Shown: one piece after another, positions 1 through 17,955 of the stretch | Layout of the letters: every line of letters begins with the position of its first letter | How positions within the stretch are numbered: the first letter of the stretch is position 1 | Source of the DNA: Candidatus Liptonbacteria bacterium | GTDB taxonomy: Bacteria > Patescibacteriota > Minisyncoccia > UBA6257 > JACOXY01 | DNA: 64,000 bases | Reading direction: 5' to 3' | NCBI GenBank assembly: GCA_016182095.1 | Contig: JACOXY010000011.1 | Span: 67,794 to 131,793 of the forward strand | Program-made: the position numbers and the translations under genes | The notes under the pieces: generated by a model | Seen by the model: only the letters and a program-made list of their open reading frames with translations | The model's database searches: none | Told to the model about the DNA's origin: nothing

Positions 1-486
1 CTCTCCAATGCCAATAGTCGTGCACGCCCACTCGCCGACTCCATCTACTGTCAAAATCGCGGCTTTTTCAAACGGAGAACAAAAAAATGATGCGGCCGCA
101 TGCGATAAATGATGCGTCGAAAATAAAATTTTTCCGGGGTTAATCCCTAATTCTTTCGAGATTAAGGCCCTAATCCAAATTTTGGATATAAACAAGCTCT
201 TCACGGCTTTAACAAAAACATGCGGCGTCCAGGGAAAAGTTAAAAATAATGTTTTGAAAATTCTTTCAAGCTTAAAAAATGGTTTTTCATAAAAAATAAC
301 ATAATCAATTTTATCCGTGCTCACGAGAGCTTCTTCCATAACAAAATTAATAGCCATCTTGGGAAAGCTGTAATCGTGTTTAACTCTCGAAAAACGCTCT
401 TCTTCGCTCATAGCGACGGGCCTACCATCAATTAAAAGAGCCGCCGCTGAGTCATGATAAAAAAAAGAAAGTCCCAATATTGTCAT
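1..486 (-). CDS. carbamoyltransferase (NodU/CmcH family), N-terminal part; the gene runs off the left edge
   Basis: My own reverse-strand translation from ATG at 486 gives MTILGLSFFYHDSAAALLIDGRPVAMSEEERFSRVKHDYSFP...KMAINFVMEEALVSTDKIDY. This matches the carbamoyltransferase N-terminal consensus. It is absent from the ORF track because the window truncates it. Confidence 0.6.
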   Translation of the reverse strand, partial: MTILGLSFFYHDSAAALLIDGRPVAMSEEERFSRVKHDYSFPKMAINFVMEEALVSTDKIDYVIFYEKPFFKLERIFKTLFLTFPWTPHVFVKAVKSLFISKIWIRALISKELGINPGKILFSTHHLSHAAASFFCSPFEKAAILTVDGVGEWACTTIGIGE

Positions 487-542
487 ATAATGATCTTTTA
501 GAGTACAATTAATTATTATCCGAGTGTGGACAGTGAGCAACT

Positions 543-1613
543 ATGAAATCTATATTGAATAAAAAAACGTTCGGGAAAATCTTAATTTTCTCTATAACTT
601 CCCTCGCCGGGTTTATTTTTTTGGAAATCATGATATATGTAATCACTCCGCAAAAGACCATGTATTATGACAAAGTTAATACTGAACCAACTCGTGAATT
701 ATATCAATATAACGCCGGAAAGCCGCCCAAAGTAAAATCCGGTCTTAATGTTAGTGGGCTTTCCGATATTTATCACGAATACAACATGGATATCCAAACC
801 GATCAGTTTGGATTTAGGCGCGAAAAGACAGATCCCCTGAAGCCAACCGTCATTATTTTGGGCGATTCGCAAACTTTTGGTTTTGGAGTCTTGAATCCCG
901 AAGCTTACCCGAATTTGTTGGATGAAATGGATAACTCATGCCAAATTGTAAATGCCGGCAAGCCTGGAGCGGGGTTAAATCATTACGTTTACTACCTGAA
1001 AGAAATGCTTGCATCCAAAAACTTTAAAAATATCAAACAAATTATCATTGGATTGAACATGCCCGGCAACGATTGGAACGAAATGGTCAGTTTGTCCAAA
1101 AAAATTGATCCTGAACTTTCACAGTTCATACCTGATTCGACAGAATTCTTGGGAAAAAAGAAATCTCTTTCTTCAAGGGCGCAAGAGCTGCTTTTTTACT
1201 CCCAAGCATACACATTCATGAGATTTGTTGTCGCCCCCAGATTAAAGCATTTTGTTCTTGGGTTTACGGATTTGGCCAAAGCCGAACAGGAAGAGTATGA
1301 AAAGACCGGCCCGGCTGTCGAAACTTTAATCAAGCTCATGCAATCGGCAACCAAAGAAAAAAAAATTGACATAATCTTCATATTCTTTCCCGAAAGACCG
1401 CACTACTTTAAAAAACCCCTGACTTATATAAAAAATCTTCAAAGCTTTATGAATGAGAATGGCATAAAATATTTGGATCTTATACCCCAATTTAAAGAGT
1501 CATACACAAAAATTGATGACTTTTGGCTACCAATAGACGGCCACTTTAATGCTTCGGGGCATAAATTTATGGCCGAGGCCATAAATAAAGCGAATATAAT
1601 TTCTTGCAGATAA
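543..1613 (+). CDS. SGNH/GDSL-like hydrolase with N-terminal membrane anchor
   Basis: N-terminal TM helix; GDS block (ILGDSQTFGFG); C-terminal DGHFN, a D-x-H-like block. Confidence 0.45.
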   Translation: MKSILNKKTFGKILIFSITSLAGFIFLEIMIYVITPQKTMYYDKVNTEPTRELYQYNAGKPPKVKSGLNVSGLSDIYHEYNMDIQTDQFGFRREKTDPLKPTVIILGDSQTFGFGVLNPEAYPNLLDEMDNSCQIVNAGKPGAGLNHYVYYLKEMLASKNFKNIKQIIIGLNMPGNDWNEMVSLSKKIDPELSQFIPDSTEFLGKKKSLSSRAQELLFYSQAYTFMRFVVAPRLKHFVLGFTDLAKAEQEEYEKTGPAVETLIKLMQSATKEKKIDIIFIFFPERPHYFKKPLTYIKNLQSFMNENGIKYLDLIPQFKESYTKIDDFWLPIDGHFNASGHKFMAEAINKANIISCR

Positions 1614-1646
1614 GAAGTTGGTGTGGTGCAGTTTTTTACTGTCAAT

Positions 1647-1874
1647 CTAAAATTCTTTTTTAATACTTCCGAGGTCATCGCCCCACTTGCCTTTAGCAGT
1701 CCAGTTTGTCGCTTCCCCGGACGCGAAATCATTTTTTATTATTCGGTAGGGTAATGCAAAAATACCGAAAATCAAATAATAAAACAGAGTAAGCAAAACC
1801 GAAGAAATAAAATCTCCCAGTAAGAAAGCGAATTTAAACCAAAGCTCTTTAATTTTGAGCAATATTCCCTTCAT
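1647..1874 (-). CDS. small membrane protein, SxtJ-like partner of carbamoyltransferases
   Basis: 75 aa with two TM helices; sits immediately upstream of a DUF5989-like gene and near the carbamoyltransferase. Confidence 0.35.
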   Translation of the reverse strand: MKGILLKIKELWFKFAFLLGDFISSVLLTLFYYLIFGIFALPYRIIKNDFASGEATNWTAKGKWGDDLGSIKKEF

Positions 1875-2066
1875 TTAAAATAGGGTGTAAATAAATGGTC
1901 CCAATGACGAACTTTGGGCGAAAATTATCACCAAAAAGAAAATTGTCAAAAAGAAAACCATCGGAATCATCCACCACATTTTGTTTTCCCATAAAAACTC
2001 AAGTAGGGCCGCGATGATAGATGAACGCAATTTAATTGTTTGGATTATTTCCTTGAATTTTTTCAC
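1875..2066 (-). CDS. DUF5989/SxtK-like small membrane protein
   Basis: 63 aa with one TM; the C-terminal SSLGPFIYTLF matches the APFIYTLF signature of the family that accompanies carbamoyltransferases. Confidence 0.45.
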   Translation of the reverse strand: MKKFKEIIQTIKLRSSIIAALLEFLWENKMWWMIPMVFFLTIFFLVIIFAQSSSLGPFIYTLF

Positions 2067-2258
2067 TTTTTAATGTTAGCAAATTTTTTAGTCATCGGCA
2101 AATAGCGTCAAGATTTACAAAAATTTTCAGCAGCCCTTCTGGTCATGTGGTTGATTTAACCATAACAATTTTCCCACTATTAATAATTTTTATGCAGCAC
2201 AAAAACAACTCTGACAGCTTGCAAAAAGCATCATTAAAAGCAATACTATTTACGCGAC

Positions 2259-4523
2259 ATGAACCCCGCGCGCAAAATAACAGTAATAGCCATAACAATT
2301 AGCGCAACCTCCCTCCTATTTTATTTACGCGGGACAATTTACGCGAGTTTTTTAGAACGGATAAAAATCATAAGCCCAGAATTACATTTTAATATCACAA
2401 GAGCCGAAGCTTCCCTCAAAAAAACCGCCAATCTGTTACATTTCCCTTATTGGTTTAGAAAAACAAGGCTTCCGGTATATAACTTATACATAGACGAGAA
2501 AGATATTTATAAAATAAGTAGCATCCTGCCTAACTATGATCCGGAAGCAAAAACAGGAGCGAGTCCGGAAAATTTTGCTTTTATTGATGGTTTTTTTGCC
2601 TCGGGTGATTATCGTGACAAAATTGAAGTGCGATTTCGCGGGCACAGGCCGGTACATTGGGAAAGCGCCAAAAGATCGCTGCTAATTAAATTTCCCAAAG
2701 ACCGACTGTTTGAAAAAATGAGGTCAATCGACCTGATAGCGCCAATAACTAAAGAATATGCCGCGCTGGAAATAGTTAATAACTATAGATTAAAAGAAAT
2801 GGGGCTAGTCCCAACCAATCTATTTTTAGTTTGGTTAAAAATTAATGGTGGGGACGCGGGTATCTACCTAGCAAAAGAAAGGTACTCGGCGGAATGGCTG
2901 GAGAAAAATGGCTTACCGCCTAATAGCGAAGTCTTTTCGCAAACGGGGTTGGATTCGAGCTGGAGCAGAGATATTTATGAACAAAAGGAGTCTTTCGCGG
3001 AATTGGACACCCTGTTTTCGCTCTTAAGAGAAACGGATGATGTTTTTTATAAAAATATAGGCAATATTTTGGATTTAAATAAAATATACAGAGCTATAGC
3101 ATTTAATGTTATCGCCGGGGGAACGCATTCGCAGGGCCAGAATTTAAATTTTCTTTTTAATGGCGCGACCGGGAAGCTGGAGCCGCTCCTCGAAGATACC
3201 GCCATTTTCTACGGGCGGAACAATAAAGAGCCAGTCGAGGTTTATAACGAAATAAACGTATTCTCCAGACGCATATTATCTAATGAAAATTATTATAATG
3301 ACTATAAAAAGGTATTACGCGAAATTTTATCTTCAATTTCTTTAGAAAAAGACCTCGCGCTGTTTGATACTTTGCAAAGCCAAATTATTGTCGAATTATA
3401 TAAGGATCAAGCAAAATATTATCCTGACTTTGTTTTTAAAGAAGTTTTTCAAGAACAAAGAACCAGCATTATTGACAATTACCAAGTCGCGCAAAAATTG
3501 GCGGAGGCAAAAGAATTGCCGGTTTTTAGTGCTGAAGATTTTTCCAAAACAACCGCACAACTTGTTGAAGGCGGCGAATTTTCAAATTTTTTTGATATTT
3601 CAAAAACAGGCGAGGAGTTCATAGCTGCCAATCCGCAGTTCTTTCTCTCTTATTCAACTTCAACTCGCGATCCCATAGGCAACTTAACGCTTAAAACCGG
3701 AACATATGCTTTTAGGAAAAATGTTGTGATTCCGGCAAATTTTAATTTTGTGATAGAACAGGGAACGCACTTATTTTTAGCCAGTGGAGTTTCTATAGTA
3801 TCTTACAGCCCCATAAAAGCAATCGGATCTGCCGAAAAACTAATCATCGTGGAGCGCCTTTACCCCAAAAACGCATGGGGCTCTATCGCGGTTATAAACA
3901 CCAAAGAATCAAGCAGACTTGAGAATATAATAATTAGCGGCGGGTCGTCGTCGGAAGAAATTAATGGCGTAACATTTACAGGAATGCTCGCGGCTCACGG
4001 CGCGCCAATATTCATTGAGAACGCGATATTTTCTCTGGACGCTGACGATGATGCCTTGAACGTTAAACAAACAACCGGGGCAGTAAAAAATTCAAAATTT
4101 TACGATACCGTGGGCGACGCGATTGACCTTGATATGACAAGTAACTTTGTAATAGAAAATAATAAATTTTTTAACATTGGAACCGGACCCGAAGGCGGCG
4201 ACGCTATTGATATTTCTTTCGGAGATCCGTTTATAAACAAAAATATGATAGATAAATGCTCTGATAAGGGCGTGAGTGTCGGCGAAAAGTCTTTTCCTGA
4301 AATTACCGACAATATCATAAAAAAATGCGAAATCGGCATTGCGGTTAAGGACGAATCAAGGGCGCTAATAAAAAATAATTCAGTGTTAAATAACACTACC
4401 GGCATCGCTCTTTACCAAAAAAAATCCATATTCGGCGGCGGAACAGCTATCCTGGAAAACAACATTTTAAGCGGCAACTTAAACGATATCACCCAAGATA
4501 AGCAATCAATGATTGTGAGATAA
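2259..4523 (+). CDS. CotH-family protein with C-terminal right-handed parallel beta-helix repeats
   Basis: N-terminal signal-anchor; CotH-like blocks (VRFRGHRP...KRSLLIKF, LFLVWLKINGGDAGIYLAKERY); C-terminal repeated N/G/I-rich beta-helix turns (NNKFFNIGTG..., NNSVLNNTTGIAL...). Confidence 0.5.
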   Translation: MNPARKITVIAITISATSLLFYLRGTIYASFLERIKIISPELHFNITRAEASLKKTANLLHFPYWFRKTRLPVYNLYIDEKDIYKISSILPNYDPEAKTGASPENFAFIDGFFASGDYRDKIEVRFRGHRPVHWESAKRSLLIKFPKDRLFEKMRSIDLIAPITKEYAALEIVNNYRLKEMGLVPTNLFLVWLKINGGDAGIYLAKERYSAEWLEKNGLPPNSEVFSQTGLDSSWSRDIYEQKESFAELDTLFSLLRETDDVFYKNIGNILDLNKIYRAIAFNVIAGGTHSQGQNLNFLFNGATGKLEPLLEDTAIFYGRNNKEPVEVYNEINVFSRRILSNENYYNDYKKVLREILSSISLEKDLALFDTLQSQIIVELYKDQAKYYPDFVFKEVFQEQRTSIIDNYQVAQKLAEAKELPVFSAEDFSKTTAQLVEGGEFSNFFDISKTGEEFIAANPQFFLSYSTSTRDPIGNLTLKTGTYAFRKNVVIPANFNFVIEQGTHLFLASGVSIVSYSPIKAIGSAEKLIIVERLYPKNAWGSIAVINTKESSRLENIIISGGSSSEEINGVTFTGMLAAHGAPIFIENAIFSLDADDDALNVKQTTGAVKNSKFYDTVGDAIDLDMTSNFVIENNKFFNIGTGPEGGDAIDISFGDPFINKNMIDKCSDKGVSVGEKSFPEITDNIIKKCEIGIAVKDESRALIKNNSVLNNTTGIALYQKKSIFGGGTAILENNILSGNLNDITQDKQSMIVR

Positions 4524-4526
4524 AAT

Positions 4527-5267
4527 ATGAAAAATAACTTTTTAAGATTTGAGTTCAAATATTTGATACCTCGCTTTTTACTTGGAGACTTAAAAGGCGA
4601 CTTGGCAAAATTAAACTTTCAAGAAGATTCTGCCAATAATGCCGATGGTTTCTACCACGTGGCAAGCGTGTATTTTGACACTGTCACGCTCTCTGATTAT
4701 TCCGATAAAATCGGCGGTCTTTTAGCGAGAAAAAAATTGCGGGCAAGAATTTACAAAAAGAATGATGGAGAAGGCAGTGCGCCCGTTTGGTTGGAAATCA
4801 AAGAAAAGTATGATATGATGATCTCAAAAAAAAGAGTGGCTTTAAGCCTTACGGAGTGGCAAGAATTTTTACAGACTCCGCGCTTAGCTCGCCAAAATTT
4901 AAAATCACGCCTTTCAGAAAGCGAGACAAAAAACCTGGAAGAATTTATGTTTTGGATAGACCTGGAAAACAGAAGGCCTTATGTGCTGGTTGAATATAAG
5001 AGAAGCGCTTGGCACTTGTTAAGCGGCAAGGAAAAAATACGAATTACGCTGGATTATGACATTAAGGCGCAAAAGACAAAAAATTTGTTCGCTGATCCAA
5101 CGGCAAACGTTAGCCAAAATAATGCGGTCATAGAAATTAAATTCAGCGAAAAAATGCCGGCACAGATCGGTTCGTTGCTCGCAAAATACAATTTGGAACG
5201 CGTGGCGTACTCAAAATATGCTGAAAGCGTTGACTCAATAAGGAAATTTTATCCGGTGCCGCGTTAA
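4527..5267 (+). CDS. VTC-domain (polyphosphate-polymerase-like, CYTH-related) protein
   Basis: N-terminus RFEFKYLIP...YHVASVYFDT...LRARIYKK...WLEIKEKY matches the VTC domain pattern; immediately follows the CotH gene. Confidence 0.55.
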   Translation: MKNNFLRFEFKYLIPRFLLGDLKGDLAKLNFQEDSANNADGFYHVASVYFDTVTLSDYSDKIGGLLARKKLRARIYKKNDGEGSAPVWLEIKEKYDMMISKKRVALSLTEWQEFLQTPRLARQNLKSRLSESETKNLEEFMFWIDLENRRPYVLVEYKRSAWHLLSGKEKIRITLDYDIKAQKTKNLFADPTANVSQNNAVIEIKFSEKMPAQIGSLLAKYNLERVAYSKYAESVDSIRKFYPVPR

Positions 5268-5271
5268 ATCT

Positions 5272-5943
5272 ATGCTCAACTATTTTTCGTTTCAACCGCA
5301 AGAAATTAGCATGGCCGTGGTTATTTTTAATCTTTTCTTGGCGGCGATTATCTCGTTCGCGATAGCTTTTTTGCACAAATGGACGCGCGCGGGGCTCTCT
5401 TATTCCCAGTCTCTTTTCGCCACGCTGGTCATGTTGTGCGTTATAACAGCGGTTATTATTACCGTCGTGCAGAACAATGTCTTTGGCGCTCTGGGGTTAT
5501 TGGGAGCTTTTACTTTCATAAGATTTAGAACGATTATTAAAGAAACCAGGGATATTGCTTTCGTGTTTTTTGCTTTAGCTGAAGGCGTGGCGGCGGGACT
5601 TGGCCACTACGCAGTTGCGATAGTTTCAACTATATTCATTTCTTTTATTGTTTATTTGATATTTAAATATAAGCTGGGATCGGCAAGCGGCAAAAAATTA
5701 ATATTGCTTCTTACGGCCAGCGCTCCAATCGGAGAAGATTTGTTAAATGCGCGGCTTAGCGAAAACAATATAGCCGTTTCAATGATTAGTGGCAAGAAGC
5801 ACGACTCCATTCATGAGTATGTTTTTTATGTTCATGGAGAAAAATTAGCCGATATCCTGGACAAAGCGCTTAATGAAATGGCGCGCTCTCTGCAAATAAT
5901 AAACTACGAAATAGTAAGTAGCAGAGAGTCAATTGAATACTAA
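5272..5943 (+). CDS. DUF4956-family membrane protein
   Basis: Several TM helices plus the FIRFRTIIKETRDIAFVFFALAEG block; this is the known gene partner of VTC and CotH proteins. Confidence 0.5.
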   Translation: MLNYFSFQPQEISMAVVIFNLFLAAIISFAIAFLHKWTRAGLSYSQSLFATLVMLCVITAVIITVVQNNVFGALGLLGAFTFIRFRTIIKETRDIAFVFFALAEGVAAGLGHYAVAIVSTIFISFIVYLIFKYKLGSASGKKLILLLTASAPIGEDLLNARLSENNIAVSMISGKKHDSIHEYVFYVHGEKLADILDKALNEMARSLQIINYEIVSSRESIEY

Positions 5944-6895
5944 AACTTTTCAAAAAAACCATCGTGCGCCGGTTCTTACAATTCTCGCGATTTCGCTCAT
6001 CGCGATTGCGGCTATTATACTTAGCCAAAGCTCGCCCTCAAAGAATCGGAACTCTTGGAGTTTCGCTGTTATAGGGCATCCGCGGGCAAACGAAAATTTT
6101 GCTTCTAATCCCATTTTTATAGAAGCACTCAAAGAAGCCGAGAATCTTGGCGCGGAATTATTGTTTTTAAATGGAGACATGGTATTGGGCGGGCTTGAAT
6201 CTCTTGCGGGCATACAAAAAGAGTGGTCAGTTTTTGACAAGGATCTTAAAAATTTTAGCGGGGAAATTTACCACGCACCAGGAAACCACGACCTCTCGAC
6301 CACCCAAATGACCTCTTATTATCGTGAAAATCATCCCCTAAGCGGGAGTTTCTTGCATAAAGGAGTGCAGTTTATAATCTTCAATTCGGTGTTTCCGACC
6401 GAAGAGAGGGGTGGCAATATAAACGAAGAGGAGATTGCTTTTATCAGGCGGGAATTGGAGAAGTATGGCGACTCAATCCCGTTTATTTTTTTAATGCATC
6501 ATCCGCTGTGGGCAAACAACCTTTATCCGGCCCACAAAAAAGCGCTTGATGCCGTTGTGAATCTCGCAAATTTTTCAAAAAATAACTGGTGGGATAACGT
6601 ACATCCCCTGTTTGCAAAAAGGCGCGGCTTTATCATCAGCGGAGACGCTGGAACAAAAAATATTCCTTATACGTATTTTGAAAAAGATAGGGTTACATAC
6701 ATACTAAGCGGCATTTCTGCAAGTAGCTTGAAAGATAATGTTTTTTTACACTTAACTGTCGCGGGGGGCGACATCACCATAACTCCTCTTGCAACTAACC
6801 ACAACTTAATTACTTATGCCTTAAAATATTTCAAACAAGCAACCCTTAATCCCGAGTATGAAATAAACAAATTAAACGAAATTCTTTCCGATTAA
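5933..6895 (+). CDS. calcineurin-like metallophosphoesterase, membrane-anchored
   Basis: Motifs GDMVLGG, GNHD and HHP; N-terminal TM helix. Confidence 0.6.
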   Translation: MNTKTFQKNHRAPVLTILAISLIAIAAIILSQSSPSKNRNSWSFAVIGHPRANENFASNPIFIEALKEAENLGAELLFLNGDMVLGGLESLAGIQKEWSVFDKDLKNFSGEIYHAPGNHDLSTTQMTSYYRENHPLSGSFLHKGVQFIIFNSVFPTEERGGNINEEEIAFIRRELEKYGDSIPFIFLMHHPLWANNLYPAHKKALDAVVNLANFSKNNWWDNVHPLFAKRRGFIISGDAGTKNIPYTYFEKDRVTYILSGISASSLKDNVFLHLTVAGGDITITPLATNHNLITYALKYFKQATLNPEYEINKLNEILSD

Positions 6896-6952
6896 TTGCT
6901 GGGCTTAATTCAATAAATGTTTAAAAATAAACTTGGCGCGCGAAAAAATAGG

Positions 6953-7675
6953 TTATAATTTTTGGGAACGAACAATTATGTTTTGGGTAAAAAGACCTTT
7001 GCGAGAACCAGTTTCTATAAATAAGTAGAGGTTTATACACAAGACAACGGCTCGCCACAAAATAAACCTGCAAAGGGAAATTATGCCATGGGGCACCGGC
7101 CCCGCTTCCTTAAAAGTTATATTTTTAAACCCGGTCGCGCCAAGAACATGTCTCAAGCTTGAGGAAGTAAAACCAATACAGTGAGTAAAGTCGTAATAAC
7201 GATACCGCGCTCCAAAAGGACTCTCGGCGTTGGGGGTCTGGATTATTAAGACGCCCCCCTGACGCAAAGCGCCATAAATTAAATCTAGGACTTCAAAAAT
7301 TTCATCCTTTGTAAAATGCTCTATTACATCACGCGCTATTATACAATCAAATTTTTGCGATTTATCGCTTAAAAATGATTTAATGTCATCCTTACAAACT
7401 TTGACGTCCAGTTTCTTCGCCTCTTCAATAAGGCGCAGATCTTGGTCAATACCACGGGCATTATAAAACCCGATTAATTTTAACCAAAAAAGGAGTTCGC
7501 CGTTACCGCATCCCAAATCAAGGATGGATGCGTTTTTATCAATCGGTAAAAATCTGCTATAATAGCTATTCCAAACAGGAAATTGTTTTTTAATATTCTC
7601 CTTGCTTAAATCGCCTCTTTCAATCTTTAAATAGTGCTCAAAATATGCTTGGTAAGCTCGCTCGCGCCAATTCAT
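6953..7675 (-). CDS. class I SAM-dependent methyltransferase
   Basis: Motif I ILDLGCGNGELL; acidic motif II (IIARDVIEH). Confidence 0.6.
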   Translation of the reverse strand: MNWRERAYQAYFEHYLKIERGDLSKENIKKQFPVWNSYYSRFLPIDKNASILDLGCGNGELLFWLKLIGFYNARGIDQDLRLIEEAKKLDVKVCKDDIKSFLSDKSQKFDCIIARDVIEHFTKDEIFEVLDLIYGALRQGGVLIIQTPNAESPFGARYRYYDFTHCIGFTSSSLRHVLGATGFKNITFKEAGPVPHGIISLCRFILWRAVVLCINLYLFIETGSRKGLFTQNIIVRSQKL

Positions 7676-7723
7676 AAAATTTTATTTGCTTTAGATTTTT
7701 GTCTATATTAGTATGAGGTTATT

Positions 7724-8845
7724 ATGCCCGAGAAAAAACTTACAGTGGCGTATTTCGGGAATTATGATCCCCTTTATACCCGAGTCAGAACCGTTATTAA
7801 AGGTTTACGGAAAAATAACGTAAAAGTTATAGAATGCCGAAGCAATCACCGAAACCGCTTAAGACGGCTCGCGATTCTTGCTGTTAATTACTTTAAAATA
7901 CAAGGCAAGATAGACGCGATTCTAGTTTCCGAAGGTGGCCAGTCTTACGTCCCACTCGCCAAAATACTATCTTTTCTTACGCGAAAACCTCTTATATTTG
8001 ACGCGTTTATTTCATACTACCACGTTAAGGCAATTGACACGAGTGATGTGCGCCCCGATTCTATAAAGGGGAGATTTTTTTACTATCGCGATAAAATAAG
8101 CTGTCTTTTGGCGGATAAAGTGCTCTTGGATACCAAAGAGCACGCGGAGTATTTTTGCAAAGAATTCGGCTTGCCGCGGTCAAAATTTGAAATAGTACCC
8201 GTTGGGTCAGATGAAGATTTTTTTTATCCGGAGAAAAGCTGGGCTCGCAAAAAGGGCGGGGACTTTGTCGTTTTCCTTGTTTCAAGTTACTACCCTCTCC
8301 ACGGCGTAGATTATGTAGTCCGAGCCGCTAAAATTCTTGAAAAATACAGCGATATAAAATTTTTAATTATTGGGGACGGGATAACAAAACAAAAAGTTCT
8401 TTCATTAGCCAACGACCTGAACGTAAAAAATATTATTTTTAGAGGATCGGTTTACCCCGACGTCTTGCCTGATTTTATGGCAAGCGCCGATGTCTGCCTG
8501 GGACAATTCGGGGGCACGGAACAGGGGCACATGGTAGTGCCGGCAAAAGTATATGATGCTTTGGCCATGGCAAAACCAGTCATAACCGGAAACGGCATGG
8601 CGGCGAAAACAATGTTTAAGCATCAAGAACACCTCTTGTTTTGCCCTTTTGCTGACGCAGAAACCATTGCCAACACCATTGTGGCGCTAAAGACCGATAA
8701 GGAACTGCGGGACCAGTTAGCCGCGAATGGACATAAGTTTTTTAAAGAAAACTTTAATTTGCAAAAAGTAGGCAGCATGGTGCGTGCCATAATAGAAAAA
8801 CAGATTGACCGTAGCAAGGCGACCTATTCGCACAATAACTCATAG
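7724..8845 (+). CDS. glycosyltransferase family 4 (GT-B)
   Basis: GT4-like C-terminal domain, E..LLFCPFADAE... Confidence 0.55.
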   Translation: MPEKKLTVAYFGNYDPLYTRVRTVIKGLRKNNVKVIECRSNHRNRLRRLAILAVNYFKIQGKIDAILVSEGGQSYVPLAKILSFLTRKPLIFDAFISYYHVKAIDTSDVRPDSIKGRFFYYRDKISCLLADKVLLDTKEHAEYFCKEFGLPRSKFEIVPVGSDEDFFYPEKSWARKKGGDFVVFLVSSYYPLHGVDYVVRAAKILEKYSDIKFLIIGDGITKQKVLSLANDLNVKNIIFRGSVYPDVLPDFMASADVCLGQFGGTEQGHMVVPAKVYDALAMAKPVITGNGMAAKTMFKHQEHLLFCPFADAETIANTIVALKTDKELRDQLAANGHKFFKENFNLQKVGSMVRAIIEKQIDRSKATYSHNNS

Positions 8846-9675
8846 ATGCCATTCAAGGGATCTTCAAAGAGGATAGATGGGCGGTAGCCGAAACGCCGAA
8901 AAAGCGCGACGCATCCACCGCGCATTTCATTATTATGAATGGCCAAAAAAATAACTGGATGATGTTTGAACAGCAATTCTTTGGCGCCGCTTAACACAAG
9001 CAATTCTGCGCCCTCCACGTCTATCTTTAAAAAATTAGGAACAATCTTCCCATTTTTTACGAATTCATCCAAAGAAACGGTTTTGACCTTGGTTAATTGT
9101 GGAACGTTAGTTATCATCCCCAAAGAATTTCCGGCGCTTTCAGAGAAAAACTGCTCTCCTTCTGTTTCGGCTACGGCGCATTCAACCACAACAACATTAC
9201 TGATGTTGTTTAATCCTGTGTGCTTTTTCAAAAGCTGCACATTCCGTGATAAAGGCTCAAACGCAAAAACTTTCCCGCCCGGGCCAACCAGTTGAGAAAA
9301 AAGAAGAGAGTAAAACCCAACATGCGCGCCAATATCAAAAACAGTATCTCCTCTCTTTATGAGGCCCTGAAATAATTTTTGGTTCTTGGGTTCATAAGAT
9401 CCCAGCCAATAGCCATTAACACCAGAGCCTTTTACCCACTTTTTGCCCCTAAGAGGCCCTTGCAAAATCCGCAGCACCCAAGTATCCGGAATAAAATTCA
9501 AAAAAAACCTGGTAATCCCGCCCAAGAATGATTTTTGTGGCAACCTTGAAAAATTAACCATATAAATCTGGCTATTTTTATATGCCTTGTTTTGTGATTT
9601 AATGGTAAAACAACAGCATGAAAACGCAAGCAATCCAAAAAAAATATCGCCTTGCCATACTACTCTCACATCCAA
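8824..9675 (-). CDS. FkbM-family methyltransferase; the likely true start is near 9561
   Basis: VFDIGAHVGFYSLLFS...VFAFEP block. The first ~38 codons overlap the divergent neighbour, and Met39 (MVNFSRL) is a better start. Confidence 0.5.
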   Translation of the reverse strand: MDVRVVWQGDIFFGLLAFSCCCFTIKSQNKAYKNSQIYMVNFSRLPQKSFLGGITRFFLNFIPDTWVLRILQGPLRGKKWVKGSGVNGYWLGSYEPKNQKLFQGLIKRGDTVFDIGAHVGFYSLLFSQLVGPGGKVFAFEPLSRNVQLLKKHTGLNNISNVVVVECAVAETEGEQFFSESAGNSLGMITNVPQLTKVKTVSLDEFVKNGKIVPNFLKIDVEGAELLVLSGAKELLFKHHPVIFLAIHNNEMRGGCVALFRRFGYRPSILFEDPLNGIYELLCE

Positions 9676-12065
9676 TTCATTATCTGGTTGATTTCTATCA
9701 AGAACTCCATCGTGATACAGATATTGAAACCATGGTTTATTTTTGTTCTGATTTTGGGATAAGAGCCGGTTATGATTCTACTTTTAACCAAAGAGTTAGA
9801 TGGTATGATGATTCTATCTTAGACGGTTTGCCACATAAATTTTTAAAAAATTTTTCTCCGCGTTCATCAGTTGGCGGATTTTTTAGCATTATAAATCCTG
9901 GAATTGTTCAAGAACTTAAAAATGGAAAATTTGACGCAATTTTGATCCACAGCTACACCCAATGCACCAGCTGGATGGCGTGGCACGCCGCGCAAAAACT
10001 GGGCATTCCCATTCTTTTTAGAGGAGAGTCCTTTCTTTTAAATAAAAGACCCAGGGTCACGCTAAAACTTAAAGATGTATTAGTGCGCCTATTTTTTAAA
10101 AAAGTGTTCGCATTTTTAGCAATCGGTTCATTAAACAAAGAGTATCTTAAGGCATACGGCGCGAGCGAACACCGCATCATATCGGCGCCATATGTCGCGG
10201 CTCCGCCGAGAAAAGATGAATTCGGGGAGGTCGCGGCTCTAAAAGAATCTCTGGGCATTAATAAAGATGATGTAGTTATATTAAGCATCGGCAAACTTAT
10301 ACCCCGAAAGGGACCAATGGATCTTGTTCGCGCTTTTGAGCTTTTAACTAGTGGCTATGCCCCCCGCCTTCGCCAAGGCTTCGGAGGGCAAGCAAACCCC
10401 AAACCCCGCTTGTTGTTTGTTGGCGACGGCCCAGAAAGAGAAAAAATAGAAAACTACTCAAAAGAGAAAAATCTCCGCGTCATTTGCGTCGGATTTATGC
10501 CACCCGAGAAACTGCCGCTTTACTATTCAATAGCCGACATATTCGCGCTCCCGTCCTACTTTGAAACTTGGGGCTTGGTCATAAACGAGGCCATGTCATA
10601 TGGGTTGCCAATCGTAACAACCAAAATGACCGGGGCCGCCTACGATATTGTGCGCGAAGGAGAAAACGGATTTGTTCATCAAGAAGGAGACATTGATTTG
10701 CTAAAGGTCCAAATTGAAAAATTGGTTACTAATCCTGAATTAAGAAAAAAATTTGGAGCTGCTTCCCTTAAAATAATATCGCATTGGAGCTATGTAGAAT
10801 GCGCGGAGGGCTTTAAAAAGGCAATGGAAAGGGCGGGCATGAACGTTGTGGTTATTGATCCGGGGTCGCAGCATTTAAGCGAAAGCGCGATAGCTTTCAA
10901 AAAAGCGGGTATTTTAAGAAAGTACCTAACGGGAATATTTTACGATCATCAAAAATTTCCTTTTAGACTCTTAAAACTTTTGCCGCAACCGGCAAACGCC
11001 CGGCTCGAATACTATTTAAAAAAAAGGGAGAGGTCCGGACTTAAATTCAATGAGGTAAAAACTTTTGGCTTTTACGAATGGGTTTACCTTTTGGGGAAAA
11101 AGGTGTTCCCGGGCCAAGCAGAGAAGCTCATCGGATTAAAAAATGAAAGATTCGGGATTGCGGCAAGCAATTTCAACCAAAAAACCCGTCCCAGAATAGT
11201 TTTTGCTCCGCTTACTTCGGCTTTAAGGGTTTTTGGGTCGGCAGAAAAAATCGGCGCCTTCCGCATACTTGACCAATTCATTGGACATCCTCTGAACTTA
11301 AATAAAGCGCTCGAAAAAGAAGTCGCCCAAAATCCCCGCTTAAAAAATGTAATAAAAGATTTTTCTTCCGAAAAAAGTTTAGAACTCTGTCGACGAGAAA
11401 TAGAAATGGCGGATTTAATTATTACCGGGTCGGAATTCGCCAAAAAGACTTTGATAGAAAACAGGGTTCCTGACTCTAAAATAGCGGTGGTGCCATATGG
11501 AGCCGACATTGAAATGTTCCAGCCACGCGAGAATAAACAAATCGGCTCTGAACTTAAATTATTGTTTGTTGGAAATATAAGCGTGCGCAAGGGCTCTCAC
11601 TATCTTTTGGAGGCAGTGAGAGAATTAAGACTAAAAGGTCATAAGATTAAGCTCATTATGGCGGGACCTATGGAAAATAACTGGTTTTTACGGCAATATG
11701 GCGATTGCTTTGCCTGGATTCCGCCCCTACCCAGATCCAAAATGACAAATATCTATAAAGAAGCGGATGTCTATGTTTTCCCTTCGCTTTTTGAGGGATC
11801 ATCGCTATCCATTTATGAAGCTATGGCGGCCGGATTGCCGATTATTACAACCTACGAAAGCGGCTCCGTGGTGCGCGATGGGAAGGACGGTTTTATCATC
11901 CCCTCAAAAGATCTTGATGAGCTAAAGAAAAAAATTCTTTTCTTTCTAAACAATCCCGATGCAATTGAGACGATGGGTGAGAGCGCGCGCAAAAGAGCGG
12001 AAGAATATACCTGGGAAAGATATTATAATACTCTGATAGAAACTATCAGAGCAAAATTAACCTAA
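9618..12065 (+). CDS. tandem two-domain GT4 glycosyltransferase fusion
   Basis: Two separate GT4 C-terminal signatures: EAMSYGLPIVTT...EGENGF and YEAMAAGLPIITT...DGKDGF. Confidence 0.6.
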   Translation: MKTQAIQKKYRLAILLSHPIHYLVDFYQELHRDTDIETMVYFCSDFGIRAGYDSTFNQRVRWYDDSILDGLPHKFLKNFSPRSSVGGFFSIINPGIVQELKNGKFDAILIHSYTQCTSWMAWHAAQKLGIPILFRGESFLLNKRPRVTLKLKDVLVRLFFKKVFAFLAIGSLNKEYLKAYGASEHRIISAPYVAAPPRKDEFGEVAALKESLGINKDDVVILSIGKLIPRKGPMDLVRAFELLTSGYAPRLRQGFGGQANPKPRLLFVGDGPEREKIENYSKEKNLRVICVGFMPPEKLPLYYSIADIFALPSYFETWGLVINEAMSYGLPIVTTKMTGAAYDIVREGENGFVHQEGDIDLLKVQIEKLVTNPELRKKFGAASLKIISHWSYVECAEGFKKAMERAGMNVVVIDPGSQHLSESAIAFKKAGILRKYLTGIFYDHQKFPFRLLKLLPQPANARLEYYLKKRERSGLKFNEVKTFGFYEWVYLLGKKVFPGQAEKLIGLKNERFGIAASNFNQKTRPRIVFAPLTSALRVFGSAEKIGAFRILDQFIGHPLNLNKALEKEVAQNPRLKNVIKDFSSEKSLELCRREIEMADLIITGSEFAKKTLIENRVPDSKIAVVPYGADIEMFQPRENKQIGSELKLLFVGNISVRKGSHYLLEAVRELRLKGHKIKLIMAGPMENNWFLRQYGDCFAWIPPLPRSKMTNIYKEADVYVFPSLFEGSSLSIYEAMAAGLPIITTYESGSVVRDGKDGFIIPSKDLDELKKKILFFLNNPDAIETMGESARKRAEEYTWERYYNTLIETIRAKLT

Positions 12066-12067
12066 TT

Positions 12068-12400
12068 TCTAATTATTCTCCGCCCCAGCCAGAGGCTGGT
12101 CAGCCTCAGGCCGAAAAGGCGGATCTGCCTCAGGCACGATAATTGACCTAAATAATTACCAATGCCTAATGTCTATGGGTTAAGGTTAGGAAGCCAGTTT
12201 GGTAAAAAGTCTTTGGGTTAAGTTTCCAAAAACCAACTACTTAACCCCCAAACTAAACCGGCATCTTAACCTTAACCTCTTAACCATTTATTAAACCGGC
12301 ATCTTAACCCTTACCTGAATGCTTTTTTAGAATAATTAGGTTAATTCTTCGGCCTTGCTCAGGATGGTGAGCCTGCCGAACCATTAAAGTAATTAGAATA
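12068..12400. repeat. structured intergenic element with terminal inverted repeats and internal GGTTAAGG/CTTAACC stems
   Basis: ctaattattct near 12070 pairs with agaataattag near 12336; internal complementary blocks gggttaaggttagg and cttaaccttaacc; aaccggcatcttaacc occurs twice. Confidence 0.35.
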
Positions 12401-12405
12401 GATTT

Positions 12406-13161
12406 ATGCGGAGTAAATTTTTTTTATTCGTTAAGTGGCTCTTATTCCCCGGATTGGACGTTTCTACGCGCAAAAGAATGAAATTCAAGAAATATTTAGT
12501 GGAAGGCGATATTTTAACTTTGGATGCAGGGTGCGGGAACGGAGCTTTCAGCTTTGCCGCCGCCCAAAAAGGAAACAGAGTTATCGGGATTGACTTTGAC
12601 AAGGAAAAGCTTGGGAGGTGTGAAATATTCAGGGATTATTTGAAAATCAATCCCAAACAATGCCAGTTTAAAGTTTTTAATCTTTATGAACTTCCGAAAT
12701 TAAATCTAATTTTTGACCAGATAATCTGCTTTGAAACTCTGGAACACCTCGCGGAAGATGAAAGGGTGATAAGAATTTTTGCCGAGATCATAAAACCTGG
12801 CGGCATTCTGCATCTTTGCACGCCGAGAAAAAATCGCAAACTAATGTATGGGGAGAAAATGAGTGAAAAACAAGATGGCGGGCATGTGCGGCTTGGTTAT
12901 GAATTTGAAAACTTTAAAACAATGCTTGAAAAAAGTGGGATTTCTATTGTAAAATCCGATAAAGCAGTTGGCTTTTTTGGTTTAATAATCTTAAACATTG
13001 TCCAGTGGATTGGCCTTTCCCCACTCACAAAAGGTCTGCCTAAAATAACCAAGGATGTGTTAAGCGCTTTAATTCTTTTGCCATTATACCCCCTAACTTT
13101 TTTTGATAATCTTATCCCGTCACAAAATTTAAATATTTATGTCCGCGCTATTAAAGCTTAA
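12406..13161 (+). CDS. class I SAM-dependent methyltransferase
   Basis: Motif I LDAGCGNGAFS; motif II IICFETLEH. Confidence 0.55.
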   Translation: MRSKFFLFVKWLLFPGLDVSTRKRMKFKKYLVEGDILTLDAGCGNGAFSFAAAQKGNRVIGIDFDKEKLGRCEIFRDYLKINPKQCQFKVFNLYELPKLNLIFDQIICFETLEHLAEDERVIRIFAEIIKPGGILHLCTPRKNRKLMYGEKMSEKQDGGHVRLGYEFENFKTMLEKSGISIVKSDKAVGFFGLIILNIVQWIGLSPLTKGLPKITKDVLSALILLPLYPLTFFDNLIPSQNLNIYVRAIKA

Positions 13162-14554: not shown

Positions 14555-14564
14555 ACCCCAAATG

Positions 14565-15131
14565 CTAAACAGATTGTAAATGCTCCTTAATGCCAGCGAG
14601 TAAAAATACGCCGGCGAAACTTATAAGCGCAGTGGTGACAACAATGGGCAAACGAGCCGGACCGGCTGGATTATTGGGGACGGCCGCTCTTTCGGTGATT
14701 ATAGGCAGACCTTCTAACGCCCTATCCAATCCTTGGGTTTTCGCAAGAACGCGATAACTATTAAAATTTGGATAAAATTGTACAGTTTTTTCTGACAGTA
14801 GGTTTGCTAAGCGCGCCGATATATTGGGGTTTTCCGAGCGAATTCTTATTATGATGATATTTGTGCTATAGTCATAAACAATTTTTTTGCCAAATACAGT
14901 ATCAGCCAAATCAGCGTTCTCCTTGAAAACCGCTCTTTCTATTTCTTCGCCATTTAAGGTTTCATAGATGAGGCCAAGCACGCTAGCATTTCCAGAATAA
15001 ATCTTTGCGTGAGCGTCGTAAAAATCGGGGCTGTTGTAAACAATCACCACGGAAACTAGCACGGCAGACGTAACTACTCCGCCAATAAACCATCTATATT
15101 TTCTAAGAAGATTGGTGAGGGCTATTTCCAT
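14565..15131 (-). CDS. Wzz-like chain-length-determinant protein (small)
   Basis: Two TM helices flank a soluble domain; Pro-rich segment PNNPAGPARLP lies just before the second TM. Confidence 0.35.
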   Translation of the reverse strand: MEIALTNLLRKYRWFIGGVVTSAVLVSVVIVYNSPDFYDAHAKIYSGNASVLGLIYETLNGEEIERAVFKENADLADTVFGKKIVYDYSTNIIIIRIRSENPNISARLANLLSEKTVQFYPNFNSYRVLAKTQGLDRALEGLPIITERAAVPNNPAGPARLPIVVTTALISFAGVFLLAGIKEHLQSV

Positions 15132-16471: not shown

Positions 16472-16497
16472 GCATTCAATTTAATCTTCAGAGTTCA

Positions 16498-17934: not shown

Positions 17935-17955
17935 AAAGCAGGTACAAAATTAATG

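What the first reader, a model, noticed from the sequence alone, without database searches (positions are those of the whole stretch)
2259..6895. CotH + VTC + DUF4956 three-gene module with a membrane metallophosphoesterase inside a glycan locus
A secreted CotH-family (atypical kinase-like) protein fused to a beta-helix domain is followed, co-oriented and tightly spaced, by a VTC (polyphosphate-polymerase-like) domain protein, a DUF4956 membrane protein and a calcineurin-like phosphoesterase. The CotH/VTC/DUF4956 association is a recurring neighbourhood of unknown function. Its placement among glycosyltransferases and methyltransferases suggests extracytoplasmic phosphorylation or polyphosphate-linked modification of a surface glycan.
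Basis: partly seen in the sequence, partly recalled or inferred. Interest (0 to 1): 0.6.

Follow-up and report, generated by a model that had tools for sequence, protein, structure and literature searches.

The report
Candidate polyphosphate export and glycan-modification operon
A candidate-phylum bacterium carries a tightly packed operon pairing a yeast-type polyphosphate-making enzyme and its constant membrane partner with a surface-exposed kinase-like protein; the gene association is already reported but uncharacterised, and may be an unrecognised way for bacteria to deliver phosphate polymer to the cell surface.

Summary
Four co-oriented genes sit at 2259-6895 with gaps of 3 nt, 4 nt and an 11-nt overlap:
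- CotH + beta-helix (Pfam E 1.5e-9 and 6e-14)
- VTC (E 8e-37)
- DUF4956 (E 6.5e-12)
- a divergent metallophosphoesterase (E 2e-6)

The host is a Candidatus Liptonbacteria (CPR) genome. The genes lie in a glycan locus that is not a pel locus.

In 86 loci the core is VTC plus DUF4956: 82 have both, and in 80 DUF4956 is directly downstream. CPR genomes add an anchored CotH-beta-helix fusion. FCB-group diderms add a periplasmic-adaptor-like gene and T9SS-secreted CotH proteins. The phosphoesterase occurs only here and in one close relative.

The VTC protein keeps the Vtc4 residues checked. DUF4956 is modelled as 5 TM helices plus a cytoplasmic ACT-like domain, with an invariant IRFRT..K...D motif at the inner membrane face. 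The CotH domain has His290 where Bacillus CotH has its catalytic Asp. The Asn and the metal-binding Asp are kept.

Best reading, inferred and not shown: polyphosphate is made, exported, and used by the CotH enzyme on a surface glycan. The triad is already reported as Pel accessory genes, so this is a new variant of a known, uncharacterised association.

The parts
2259..4523 (+). Gene 1: membrane-anchored CotH-like domain fused to a right-handed beta-helix (754 aa)
   Evidence: ORF. Pfam CotH, Beta_helix and NosD. AF2 model with pLDDT 81.8. Foldseek top hit is B. cereus CotH 5jda, E 3.7e-12, TM-score 0.78 on the target.
2277..2327 (+). N-terminal hydrophobic signal-anchor (about residues 7-23, preceded by R5 and K6)
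   Evidence: Best 15-residue Kyte-Doolittle mean is 2.17, starting at residue 7. 48 of 50 long homologues have an N-terminal segment of 1.6 or more.
2427..3548 (+). CotH-like (atypical kinase fold) domain, residues about 57-430
   Evidence: The representative search with this segment gave 849 representatives at E<=1e-3 and 46 at E<=1e-30.
3126..3197 (+). Active-site stretch HSQGQN...LLED. His290 takes the place of the Bacillus catalytic Asp. Asn295 and Asp313 (the DFG-like metal-binding Asp) are retained.
   Evidence: Translation. H290 and D313 are invariant in alignment A1. Aligned to B. cereus FDGFVHN...WDYD. Among 150 representatives, His occurs in 127 and Asp in none.
3669..4520 (+). C-terminal parallel beta-helix (CASH/NosD-like) domain, residues about 471-754
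   Evidence: Pfam Beta_helix, NosD and Pect-lyase. Fold matches to PL6 alginate lyases, NosD, the AlgG epimerase, GH87 and RbmB. 84 of 85 long subfamily members carry it.
4527..5267 (+). Gene 2: soluble Vtc4-type VTC (triphosphate-tunnel, polyphosphate-polymerase-like) protein, 246 aa
   Evidence: Pfam VTC E 8e-37. The family profile hits the yeast Vtc4 catalytic domain 3g3q at E 7e-13. The counterparts of K200, R264, R266, Y359, R361, R373, E426, S457 and K458 are invariant or nearly so. No hydrophobic segment.
5272..5943 (+). Gene 3: DUF4956 membrane protein, 5 TM helices plus a C-terminal ACT-like domain (223 aa)
   Evidence: Pfam DUF4956. AF2 model with pLDDT 82.7, helices 14-38, 46-66, 70-88, 92-110 and 113-132, and a beta-alpha-beta-beta-alpha-beta domain at 141-216. 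The C-terminal domain matches ACT domains and the MgtC C-terminal domain 2lqj. Positive-inside counts give N-out, C-in.
5518..5553 (+). Invariant motif I83-R84-F85-R86-T87..K90..D94 at the cytoplasmic end of TM3 and start of TM4
   Evidence: Translation. I83, R84, F85, R86 and D94 are invariant in both a 30-sequence and a 61-sequence alignment; T87 is invariant in the 61-sequence one and nearly so in the 30-sequence one; K90 is nearly invariant in the 30-sequence one only.
5933..6895 (+). Gene 4: membrane-anchored, divergent metallophosphoesterase (320 aa). A lineage-specific addition.
   Evidence: Pfam Metallophos E 2e-6, covering profile positions 19-142 only. TM segment at residues 12-30. 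GD, GNHD and HH motifs are present; motif I reads GHPR and motif V reads SGDAG (sequence, conserved in L001). Found only in the window and L001.
6953..13161 (.). Adjacent glycan-modification genes (context): a methyltransferase, GT4, an FkbM methyltransferase, a double GT4 and a methyltransferase
   Evidence: Pfam results. The same order is found in relative L001.

Best explanation
This is a four-gene operon of a Liptonbacteria (CPR) bacterium. It is built around a conserved two-protein unit: a soluble Vtc4-type polyphosphate polymerase (VTC) and its constant membrane partner DUF4956.

Proposed mechanism:
1. VTC docks on the cytoplasmic face of an oligomer of DUF4956, at or near the invariant IRFRT..K...D motif and the ACT-like domain.
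2. VTC polymerises polyphosphate from ATP.
3. The chain is passed across the membrane, as the eukaryotic VTC complex does into the vacuole. The membrane component here is not homologous to the yeast one.
4. On the outer face, the membrane-anchored CotH-like enzyme is held on a polysaccharide by its beta-helix. It uses the exported polyphosphate as phosphoryl donor, or attaches it, to modify the surface glycan made by the neighbouring glycosyltransferase and methyltransferase genes.
5. The anchored metallophosphoesterase trims or recycles the polymer in this lineage.

Shown here: the domain identities, retention of the Vtc4 residues checked, the membrane topology, the His-for-Asp change, and the strict gene linkage.

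Inferred: polymerase activity, export, the phosphoryl donor, the acceptor, and the role of the phosphoesterase.
For: Operon and host:
- The four genes are packed like an operon.
- The VTC protein is 100% identical to a protein of a Candidatus Liptonbacteria MAG.

VTC looks like an active enzyme:
- The VTC family profile matches the Vtc4 catalytic domain at E 7e-13, and the tunnel residues aligned are conserved.
- VTC has no TM segment or signal sequence.

VTC and DUF4956 form a constant pair:
- DUF4956 is next to VTC in 82 of 86 loci and directly downstream in 80, with a median gap of 6 nt.
- The loci span Patescibacteria, Ignavibacteriota, Bacteroidota, Calditrichota, Latescibacterota, Acidimicrobiales and Bacillota.
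- This mirrors yeast Vtc4, whose catalytic domain is coupled to a TM channel that translocates the product (PMC12668673).
- DUF4956 is modelled as 5 TM helices plus an ACT-like domain, N-out and C-in. Its only invariant charged cluster lies at the cytoplasmic membrane face.

The recurrent partners are all extracytoplasmic, which points to a product delivered outside:
- Anchored CotH-beta-helix proteins in CPR genomes.
- CotH proteins with T9SS sorting domains in the FCB group.
- Lipoprotein phytase-like beta-propellers.
- The anchored phosphoesterase in this window.
- In diderms, an N-terminally anchored periplasmic-adaptor (HlyD/MFP)-like gene sits directly upstream of VTC in 28 of 50 loci with full flanks. 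It is mutually exclusive with the CPR-type fusion.

The CotH domain looks functional rather than decayed:
- It keeps the basic residue 139, Asn295 and Asp313, and carries an invariant His290.

Linkage and glycan context:
- The beta-helix resembles polysaccharide lyases and epimerases.
- CotH-beta-helix homologues taken as independent starting points all have VTC and DUF4956 downstream, in Wzx-type glycan loci.

Genetics in another species:
- In S. intermedius, deleting the CotH or the DUF4956 homologue changes Pel levels and lowers aggregation (PMC12345266).
Against: - No biochemical evidence exists for any bacterial VTC, DUF4956 or secreted CotH.
- DUF4956 has no sequence similarity to the yeast VTC membrane domain, and no solved relative of its TM part exists. 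A channel role is by analogy only.
- A 5-TM monomer cannot be a pore, so oligomerisation has to be assumed.
- The S. intermedius VTC deletion (SIR_1593) had no reported aggregation phenotype, and the DUF4956 mutant made more, not less, Pel.
- 17 of 50 full loci have no CotH within 7-10 kb, so CotH is not obligatory for the pair.
- Canonical CotH uses ATP. Use of polyphosphate as donor has never been shown.
- The loop carrying His290 is modelled with low confidence (pLDDT below 50).
- The catalytic-Asp assignment in B. cereus rests on the 23-residue spacing of B. subtilis D228 and D251 and on the DxxxxN logic, because the primary paper could not be read.
Confidence: 0.4

Rival explanations
1. 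Polyphosphate is exported, but the CotH(His)-beta-helix protein is not a phosphotransferase. VTC-DUF4956 extrudes polyphosphate as an anionic matrix or counter-ion component. The CotH-like domain has lost its catalytic Asp and acts as a polyphosphate- or nucleotide-binding module. Together with the beta-helix, it tethers the polymer to the surface glycan.
For: - The canonical catalytic Asp is absent in all 150 nearest representatives.
- 19 of those 150 also have Asn in place of the metal-binding Asp.
- The known association is with the cationic Pel polymer.
- Polysaccharide deacetylase and DegT aminotransferase genes, which can yield cationic sugars, recur in CPR loci.
Against: - His290, Asn295 and Asp313 are strongly conserved (127, 140 and 119 of 150). 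That is more typical of a catalytic site than of a binding scaffold.
- VTC-linked CotH proteins of Bacillota and the FCB group keep the full canonical D..N..D set.
Confidence: 0.2
2. There is no export. VTC makes cytoplasmic polyphosphate as a store or stress polymer at the membrane. DUF4956 is an MgtC-like anchor or regulator whose ACT domain senses a metabolite. The linkage to CotH and glycan genes reflects co-regulation, for example by phosphate status, rather than a shared substrate.
For: - The architecture (5 TM plus ACT) and a weak Pfam hit resemble MgtC/YhiD, which are regulatory membrane proteins.
- ACT domains are ligand sensors.
- The only bacterial polyphosphate synthases known so far, PPK1 and PPK2, make cytoplasmic polyphosphate.
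- One third of the loci lack CotH.
Against: - This does not explain why every recurrent partner is extracytoplasmic: anchored or T9SS CotH, lipoprotein phytase-like proteins and the anchored phosphoesterase.
- It does not explain why diderms add a periplasmic-adaptor-like gene directly upstream.
- It does not explain the one-to-one linkage of the His-type CotH fusion with the pair.
Confidence: 0.2
3. CotH is an ATP-dependent protein Ser/Thr kinase that regulates or modifies proteins of the glycan machinery. This is the suggestion made for the Pel loci. VTC and DUF4956 serve phosphate homeostasis alongside it.
For: - Bacillus CotH is a protein kinase.
- This hypothesis is stated in PMC7112168.
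Against: - The domain is predicted to lie outside the membrane, where ATP is not normally available.
- The catalytic Asp is replaced in this subfamily.
- Fusion to a polysaccharide-type beta-helix points to a glycan ligand rather than a protein one.
Confidence: 0.1
4. The VTC protein is not a polymerase. It is a triphosphate-tunnel hydrolase or cyclase acting on a nucleotide or short polyphosphate, and DUF4956 transduces that signal.
For: VTC belongs to the CYTH/triphosphate-tunnel superfamily, whose members have varied activities. This rests on general knowledge of the superfamily and was not tested here.
Against: - The match is to the VTC family itself (E 8e-37), and the Vtc4 residues checked are kept, including the Lys200 and Ser457-Lys458 counterparts.
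- NCBI names the exact protein 'polyphosphate polymerase domain-containing'.
Confidence: 0.1

Closest known systems
Accessory genes of Gram-positive pel loci: cotH, polyphosphate polymerase, DUF4956 (and DUF4832). See Whitfield et al. 2020, PMC7112168; in S. intermedius these are SIR_1594, SIR_1593 and SIR_1592, PMC12345266.
   Same: The same three families are contiguous and co-oriented in an exopolysaccharide context. CotH is secreted, and DUF4956 is described as an MgtC-like TM domain plus an ACT domain. Function is unknown.
   Different: - The host is a CPR bacterium.
- No pel genes and no DUF4832 were detected among the ORFs scanned across the window.
- CotH is fused to a beta-helix rather than FN3, and carries His instead of the catalytic Asp.
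- A metallophosphoesterase is added.
- The mBio paper reports not finding the synteny outside pel loci. Here it was found in more than 25 non-pel glycan loci.
Eukaryotic VTC complex (Vtc4 catalytic subunit with the Vtc1/2/3 membrane domains)
   Same: The catalytic VTC tunnel domain is homologous and the residues checked are conserved. It is obligatorily coupled to a membrane component. In yeast, synthesis is coupled to translocation, and lumenal polyphosphatases act on the emerging chain.
   Different: - The bacterial protein has no SPX domain and no fused TM domain (246 aa).
- The membrane partner DUF4956 is unrelated in sequence to the yeast TM domain.
- Activity and export are untested.
Bacillus CotH spore-coat protein kinase (PDB 5jd9 and 5jda)
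   Same: Same fold (Foldseek E 3.7e-12). The catalytic-loop Asn and the DFG-like Asp are conserved.
   Different: - The catalytic Asp (B. subtilis D228) is replaced by an invariant His.
- The protein is membrane-anchored and extracytoplasmic, and is fused to a polysaccharide-type beta-helix.
- There is no sporulation context.
C. perfringens NELoc-2 block and the Planococcus maritimus plasmid block (VTC, DUF4956, CotH, hypothetical, HEAT-repeat, glycosyltransferase)
   Same: The VTC-DUF4956-CotH linkage next to glycosyltransferases.
   Different: - The gene order differs: CotH lies downstream.
- The Planococcus CotH keeps the canonical Asp; the NELoc-2 CotH was not checked.
- In the 2010 annotation the DUF4956 gene was called 'tubulin/FtsZ GTPase'.
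MgtC/YhiD family membrane proteins
   Same: 5 TM helices plus a C-terminal ACT-like domain. The fold matches the M. tuberculosis MgtC C-terminal domain 2lqj. JGI labels homologues 'YhiD'.
   Different: - The Pfam MgtC score is below the family cutoff (18.1 against 31.4 bits).
- The defining conserved motif here (IRFRT..K...D) belongs to DUF4956.
- DUF4956 is always paired with VTC.

Membership tests
CotH kinase family (PF08757; Bacillus CotH) | Profile match above the curated threshold | tested here: met
   38.2 bits against a cutoff of 23.8, E 1.5e-9, residues 124-388.
CotH kinase family (PF08757; Bacillus CotH) | CotH atypical kinase fold | tested here: met
   The AF2 model matches 5jda at E 3.7e-12, with a TM-score of 0.78 normalised to the target.
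CotH kinase family (PF08757; Bacillus CotH) | Catalytic Asp (B. subtilis D228, the D of DxxxxN) | tested here: not met
   The position is His290. It is invariant in A1, His in all 29 beta-helix-type sequences and His in 127 of 150 representatives, with no Asp among them. The mapping relies on the D228-D251 spacing.
CotH kinase family (PF08757; Bacillus CotH) | Metal-binding Asp (B. subtilis D251) and catalytic-loop Asn | tested here: met
   Asp313 is invariant in A1 and Asn295 is conserved.
CotH kinase family (PF08757; Bacillus CotH) | ATP-dependent Ser/Thr protein kinase activity | not testable with these tools
   Needs biochemistry.
Vtc4-type polyphosphate polymerase (VTC domain PF09359) | Profile match above the threshold over the full domain | tested here: met
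   127.5 bits against 23, profile positions 2-233 of 235.
Vtc4-type polyphosphate polymerase (VTC domain PF09359) | Catalytic and tunnel residues of yeast Vtc4 (K200, R264, R266, Y359, R361, R373, E426, S457, K458) | tested here: met
   The counterparts are K11, R72, R74, Y157, R159, R172, E203, S229 and K230. All are invariant or nearly invariant in A2 and align to 3g3q. The yeast residue numbers are recalled from the Vtc4 literature and matched to the printed alignment.
Vtc4-type polyphosphate polymerase (VTC domain PF09359) | SPX domain and fused C-terminal TM domain of the eukaryotic subunit | tested here: not met
   The protein is 246 aa with a single domain and no hydrophobic segment.
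Vtc4-type polyphosphate polymerase (VTC domain PF09359) | Polyphosphate synthesis from ATP coupled to translocation | not testable with these tools
   Needs reconstitution.
DUF4956 (PF16316) | Profile match above the threshold | tested here: met
   45.9 bits against 30.6. At least 3963 homologue clusters were found with the family profile.
MgtC family (PF02308) | Profile match above the threshold | tested here: not met
   18.1 bits against a cutoff of 31.4. Only the architecture and the C-terminal fold are similar.
Calcineurin-like metallophosphoesterase (PF00149) | Profile match above the threshold | tested here: met
   28.7 bits against 21.5, but covering only profile positions 19-142 of 191.
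Calcineurin-like metallophosphoesterase (PF00149) | Five metal-binding motifs: DxH, GD, GNH(D/E), H and GHxH | tested here: inconclusive
   GD (FLNGD), GNHD and HH are present. Motif I reads IGHPR with no Asp, and motif V reads SGDAG with no His (sequence, conserved in L001). The motif definitions come from general knowledge of the superfamily.
Gram-positive Pel accessory module (cotH, PPP, DUF4956, DUF4832 next to pelDEADAFG) | Contiguous cotH, VTC and DUF4956 | tested here: met
Gram-positive Pel accessory module (cotH, PPP, DUF4956, DUF4832 next to pelDEADAFG) | Adjacency to pel genes and to DUF4832 | tested here: not met
   No Pel-family or DUF4832 Pfam hit in any of the 37 window ORFs scanned across the window.

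The most novel reading that the evidence does not exclude
VTC plus DUF4956 is a widespread polyphosphate synthase-translocase that works independently of PPK. It would be a functional analogue of the eukaryotic VTC complex, built with a non-homologous membrane partner, and would extrude polyphosphate to the cell surface. Secreted CotH-family enzymes would then use that polymer instead of ATP as phosphoryl donor. Here the enzyme is a His-for-Asp variant fused to a glycan-binding beta-helix, possibly working through a phospho-His intermediate. The targets would be surface glycans, which would be phosphorylated or polyphosphorylated. This would explain how extracytoplasmic kinases are fuelled, and would identify a third route of polyphosphate synthesis in bacteria.
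Probability: 0.3. Interest if true: 0.85.

Novelty: new variant of a known kind. Interest (0 to 1): 0.6.

Why it matters
Only PPK1 and PPK2 are recognised as polyphosphate synthases in prokaryotes. PPK-independent extracellular polyphosphate has just been reported, with no enzyme assigned (bioRxiv 10.64898/2026.08.04.742738).

A Vtc4-type enzyme that keeps the Vtc4 residues checked, is always paired with one membrane protein, and is always surrounded by extracytoplasmic phospho-enzymes is a concrete, testable candidate for such a route. It could also explain where secreted CotH kinases get their phosphate.

The pair occurs in cultivable Bacillota and Bacteroidota, so the hypothesis can be tested there. 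For CPR bacteria it would point to a phosphate-modified surface glycan.

The His-for-Asp CotH-beta-helix subfamily (46 representatives at E<=1e-30) is a distinct, undescribed enzyme class.

Tried and rejected
- Single-sequence PDB search with VTC found nothing. The family profile was needed.
- NCBIfam has no model for the VTC or DUF4956 proteins.
- The promoter and terminator scan of 1500-7800 was close to shuffled expectation and gave no operon boundaries.
- The DUF4956 profile against PDB sequences gave only noise, so no link to the yeast VTC TM domain could be made. Foldseek matched only the ACT-like domain.
- The primary CotH structure paper (Nguyen et al. 2016) is not held. The catalytic-residue mapping uses secondary citations and residue spacing.
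- The idea that the metallophosphoesterase is a conserved fourth member was rejected. Iterative search of 3526 ORFs from 86 loci found it only in the window and L001.
- The idea that the His substitution marks all VTC-linked CotH proteins was rejected. The FCB-group CotH proteins and both Bacillota examples checked keep Asp.
- A pel-locus identity for this region was rejected: no Pel or DUF4832 families were found.
- Papers mentioning DUF4956 in B. thetaiotaomicron and S. mutans give only transcriptome table entries.
- The CotH mention in the Zetaproteobacteria stalk-gene paper is unrelated to VTC.

Full report
**What is in the sequence**

Four + strand ORFs occupy 2259-6895. They are separated by 3 nt, 4 nt and an 11-nt overlap.

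Pfam places them above curated thresholds:
- 2259-4523: CotH (E 1.5e-9) plus Beta_helix/NosD (E 6e-14).
- 4527-5267: VTC (E 8e-37, full length).
- 5272-5943: DUF4956 (E 6.5e-12), with a sub-threshold MgtC hit.
- 5933-6895: Metallophos (E 2e-6, partial profile).

Downstream are methyltransferases and GT4 glycosyltransferases, followed by PMT_2, two Wzy_C genes and AsnB. Upstream, on the opposite strand, are DUF5989, a small membrane ORF and a carbamoyltransferase. The rest of the window is housekeeping, including ClpB, FtsK and tRNAs.

The VTC protein is 100% identical to a protein of a Candidatus Liptonbacteria MAG. The host is therefore a CPR/Patescibacteria bacterium.

**How conserved the neighbourhood is**

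Relatives of the VTC protein at 77%, 50% and 38% identity all have CotH-beta-helix upstream and DUF4956 downstream. They sit in different glycan contexts: teichoic-type Glyphos_transf, GT4, an ABC exporter and DegT.

A scan of one genome per species returned 220 VTC relatives, and I analysed the best 80. Iterative profile searches were run on 3526 ORFs from all 86 loci held. Results:
- DUF4956 is present in 82 loci.
- It is directly downstream of VTC on the same strand in 80, with a median gap of 6 nt.
- The metallophosphoesterase is found only in the window and its closest relative, L001.

Clustering the neighbours shows two mutually exclusive architectures.

*Type A*, mostly Patescibacteria:
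- Gene order is CotH-beta-helix, VTC, DUF4956.
- The block is embedded in glycan biosynthesis genes: GT4, methyltransferases, epimerases, DegT, an ABC exporter, deacetylase, GT2, carbamoyltransferase and Capsule_synth.

*Type B*, in Ignavibacteriota, Bacteroidota, Calditrichota and Latescibacterota:
- An N-terminally anchored HlyD/periplasmic-adaptor-like gene sits directly upstream of VTC-DUF4956.
- It is often followed by CotH proteins with T9SS sorting domains, or by a lipoprotein phytase-like beta-propeller.

Counts for the 50 loci with at least 7 kb on both sides:

| Feature | Loci |
|---|---|
| CotH anywhere in the locus | 33 |
| CotH flanking the pair | 25 |
| Adaptor-like gene flanking VTC | 28 |
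| Neither a flanking CotH nor an adaptor-like gene | 5 |

I also ran the reverse test. Starting from three CotH-beta-helix homologues, all three have VTC and DUF4956 immediately downstream. They lie in Wzx-type loci with NeuB, CMP-sugar synthetase, DegT and radical SAM genes.

RefSeq-annotated Firmicutes plasmids show the same triad next to glycosyltransferases.

**The individual proteins**

*VTC.* A family profile matches the yeast Vtc4 catalytic domain at E 7e-13. The counterparts of the residues I recall as lining the Vtc4 tunnel are invariant or nearly so: K11, R72/R74, Y157/R159, R172, E203 and S229/K230. The protein has no hydrophobic segment. It has no SPX domain and no TM domain.

*DUF4956.* The family is large, with at least 3963 clusters.
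- An AF2 model (pLDDT 82.7) gives five TM helices and a C-terminal beta-alpha-beta-beta-alpha-beta domain.
- That domain matches ACT domains and the MgtC C-terminal domain.
- Positive-inside counts give N-out, C-in.
- The invariant motif I83-R84-F85-R86-T87..K90..D94 therefore lies at the cytoplasmic end of TM3.
- The TM part has no solved relative and no sequence similarity to the yeast VTC membrane domain.

*CotH-beta-helix.*
- It has an N-terminal hydrophobic anchor, as do 48 of 50 long homologues.
- The AF2 model (pLDDT 81.8) matches B. cereus CotH at E 3.7e-12.
- The C-terminal half matches polysaccharide lyases and epimerases and NosD.

Aligned to B. cereus CotH, Asn295 and Asp313 correspond to the catalytic-loop Asn and the WD(YD) metal-binding Asp. 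Position 290 corresponds to the Asp of FDGFVHN. By its 23-residue spacing, that Asp is B. subtilis D228, whose mutation inactivates the kinase. In the window protein this position is His.

This is a subfamily trait:
- All 29 beta-helix-type sequences in the loci have His.
- The FCB-type CotH proteins (30 of the aligned sequences carry Asp there) and the two Bacillota CotH proteins checked keep Asp.
- Among the 150 best of 849 representatives, 127 have His and none has Asp. Asn295 is kept in 140 and Asp313 in 119. 84 of 85 long members carry the beta-helix.

The loop itself is modelled with low confidence.

*Metallophosphoesterase.* It has a TM anchor at residues 12-30. The GD, GNHD and HH motifs are present, but motifs I and V are degenerate.

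**Most likely mechanism**

The strict pairing of a soluble Vtc4-type polymerase with one membrane protein parallels the eukaryotic VTC complex. There, the catalytic domain feeds the nascent chain through a channel made by its own TM domains, and lumenal polyphosphatases act on it (PMC12668673).

Every recurrent accessory partner found here is extracytoplasmic, and diderm lineages add a periplasmic-adaptor-like protein.

I therefore propose that VTC and DUF4956 synthesise polyphosphate and move it across the cytoplasmic membrane. The anchored CotH(His)-beta-helix enzyme would then use or attach this polymer on the surface glycan encoded by the surrounding genes. The phosphoesterase would be a lineage-specific trimming or recycling enzyme.

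Only the domain identities, residue conservation, topology and linkage are shown. Activity, export, donor and acceptor are inferred. I give the whole model 0.4.

Rival readings:
- Export with a non-catalytic tethering CotH (0.2).
- Cytoplasmic polyphosphate with an MgtC-like regulator (0.2).
- An ATP-dependent protein kinase, as proposed for Pel loci (0.1).
- A non-polymerase tunnel enzyme (0.1).

Points that weaken the model:
- The S. intermedius VTC mutant had no reported aggregation phenotype, and the DUF4956 mutant made more Pel.
- One third of the loci have no CotH.
- DUF4956 must oligomerise to form any pore.

**Comparison with what is known**

The triad has already been described as accessory genes of Gram-positive pel loci (PMC7112168). 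It has been partly tested genetically in S. intermedius (PMC12345266). It is also visible in C. perfringens NELoc-2 (PMC2879425). No function has been assigned.

I found no paper in the held library that characterises a bacterial VTC or DUF4956. A 2026 preprint still lists only PPK1 and PPK2 for prokaryotes, while reporting PPK-independent extracellular polyphosphate in B. cereus, which it says lacks a VTC4 homologue.

The present locus differs from the published cases in several ways:
- The host is a CPR bacterium.
- The context is a non-pel glycan locus.
- CotH is fused to a beta-helix.
- His replaces the catalytic Asp.
- A phosphoesterase is added.

The statement that the synteny is not found outside pel loci does not hold for the genomes sampled here.

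**Verdict**

It is a new variant of a known but uncharacterised gene association, with a clear and testable hypothesis attached. Interest is 0.6.

The most novel reading not excluded is a PPK-independent polyphosphate synthase-exporter that fuels extracytoplasmic CotH phosphotransferases. I give it a probability of about 0.3, with high interest if true.

Noticed in passing
window 36513-36587 (-): A tRNA-Ile with anticodon TAT sits in a cluster of five tRNA genes (Ile, Glu, Thr, Arg, Leu). To my knowledge most bacteria instead use a modified CAT anticodon to read AUA.
   Followed up: no
window 1-2066 (-): A divergently transcribed unit lies upstream of the operon. It comprises DUF5989 (1875-2066, E 4e-15), a 75-aa membrane ORF (1647-1874) and the N-terminus of a carbamoyltransferase (1-540). 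A GDSL-like + strand gene (543-1613) lies between them.
   Followed up: partly
L018, L027-L029, L032, L043, L062 (about 300-18800): In Ignavibacteria the block is: adaptor-like gene, VTC, DUF4956, CotH (1181 aa, T9SS), CotH (about 570 aa, T9SS). It lies next to glycan-degrading genes (GH16-malectin-T9SS, GH3) and a PorV-like outer-membrane protein. This is a degradative rather than a biosynthetic glycan context.
   Followed up: partly
L036, L038, L039, L051, L055, L061, L070, L077 (gene next to DUF4956): A lipoprotein with SdiA-regulated/phytase-like beta-propeller domains directly flanks DUF4956 in seven of these eight loci and lies near it in the eighth (L061). It is another exported, possibly phosphate-ester-directed partner.
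   Followed up: partly
L086 (Planococcus maritimus plasmid NZ_CP059541, 4470-12824) and L087 (Pseudobutyrivibrio xylanivorans pNP95, 3848-14201): The triad is plasmid-borne in Bacillota. The Planococcus block (VTC, DUF4956, CotH, hypothetical, HEAT repeat, glycosyltransferase) has the same order as C. perfringens NELoc-2.
   Followed up: partly
representative proteins (for example P0230, P0257, P0273): 19 of 150 subfamily representatives have Asn instead of the metal-binding Asp313. A few have no His at position 290. These may be inactive paralogues.
   Followed up: no
window 24782-28201 (-): A 1139-aa protein whose only recognisable domain is an N-terminal peptidoglycan-binding domain. Several further ORFs (13139-14554, 14565-15131, 17317-17934, 29532-30287, 39240-39971) have no Pfam match.
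   Followed up: no
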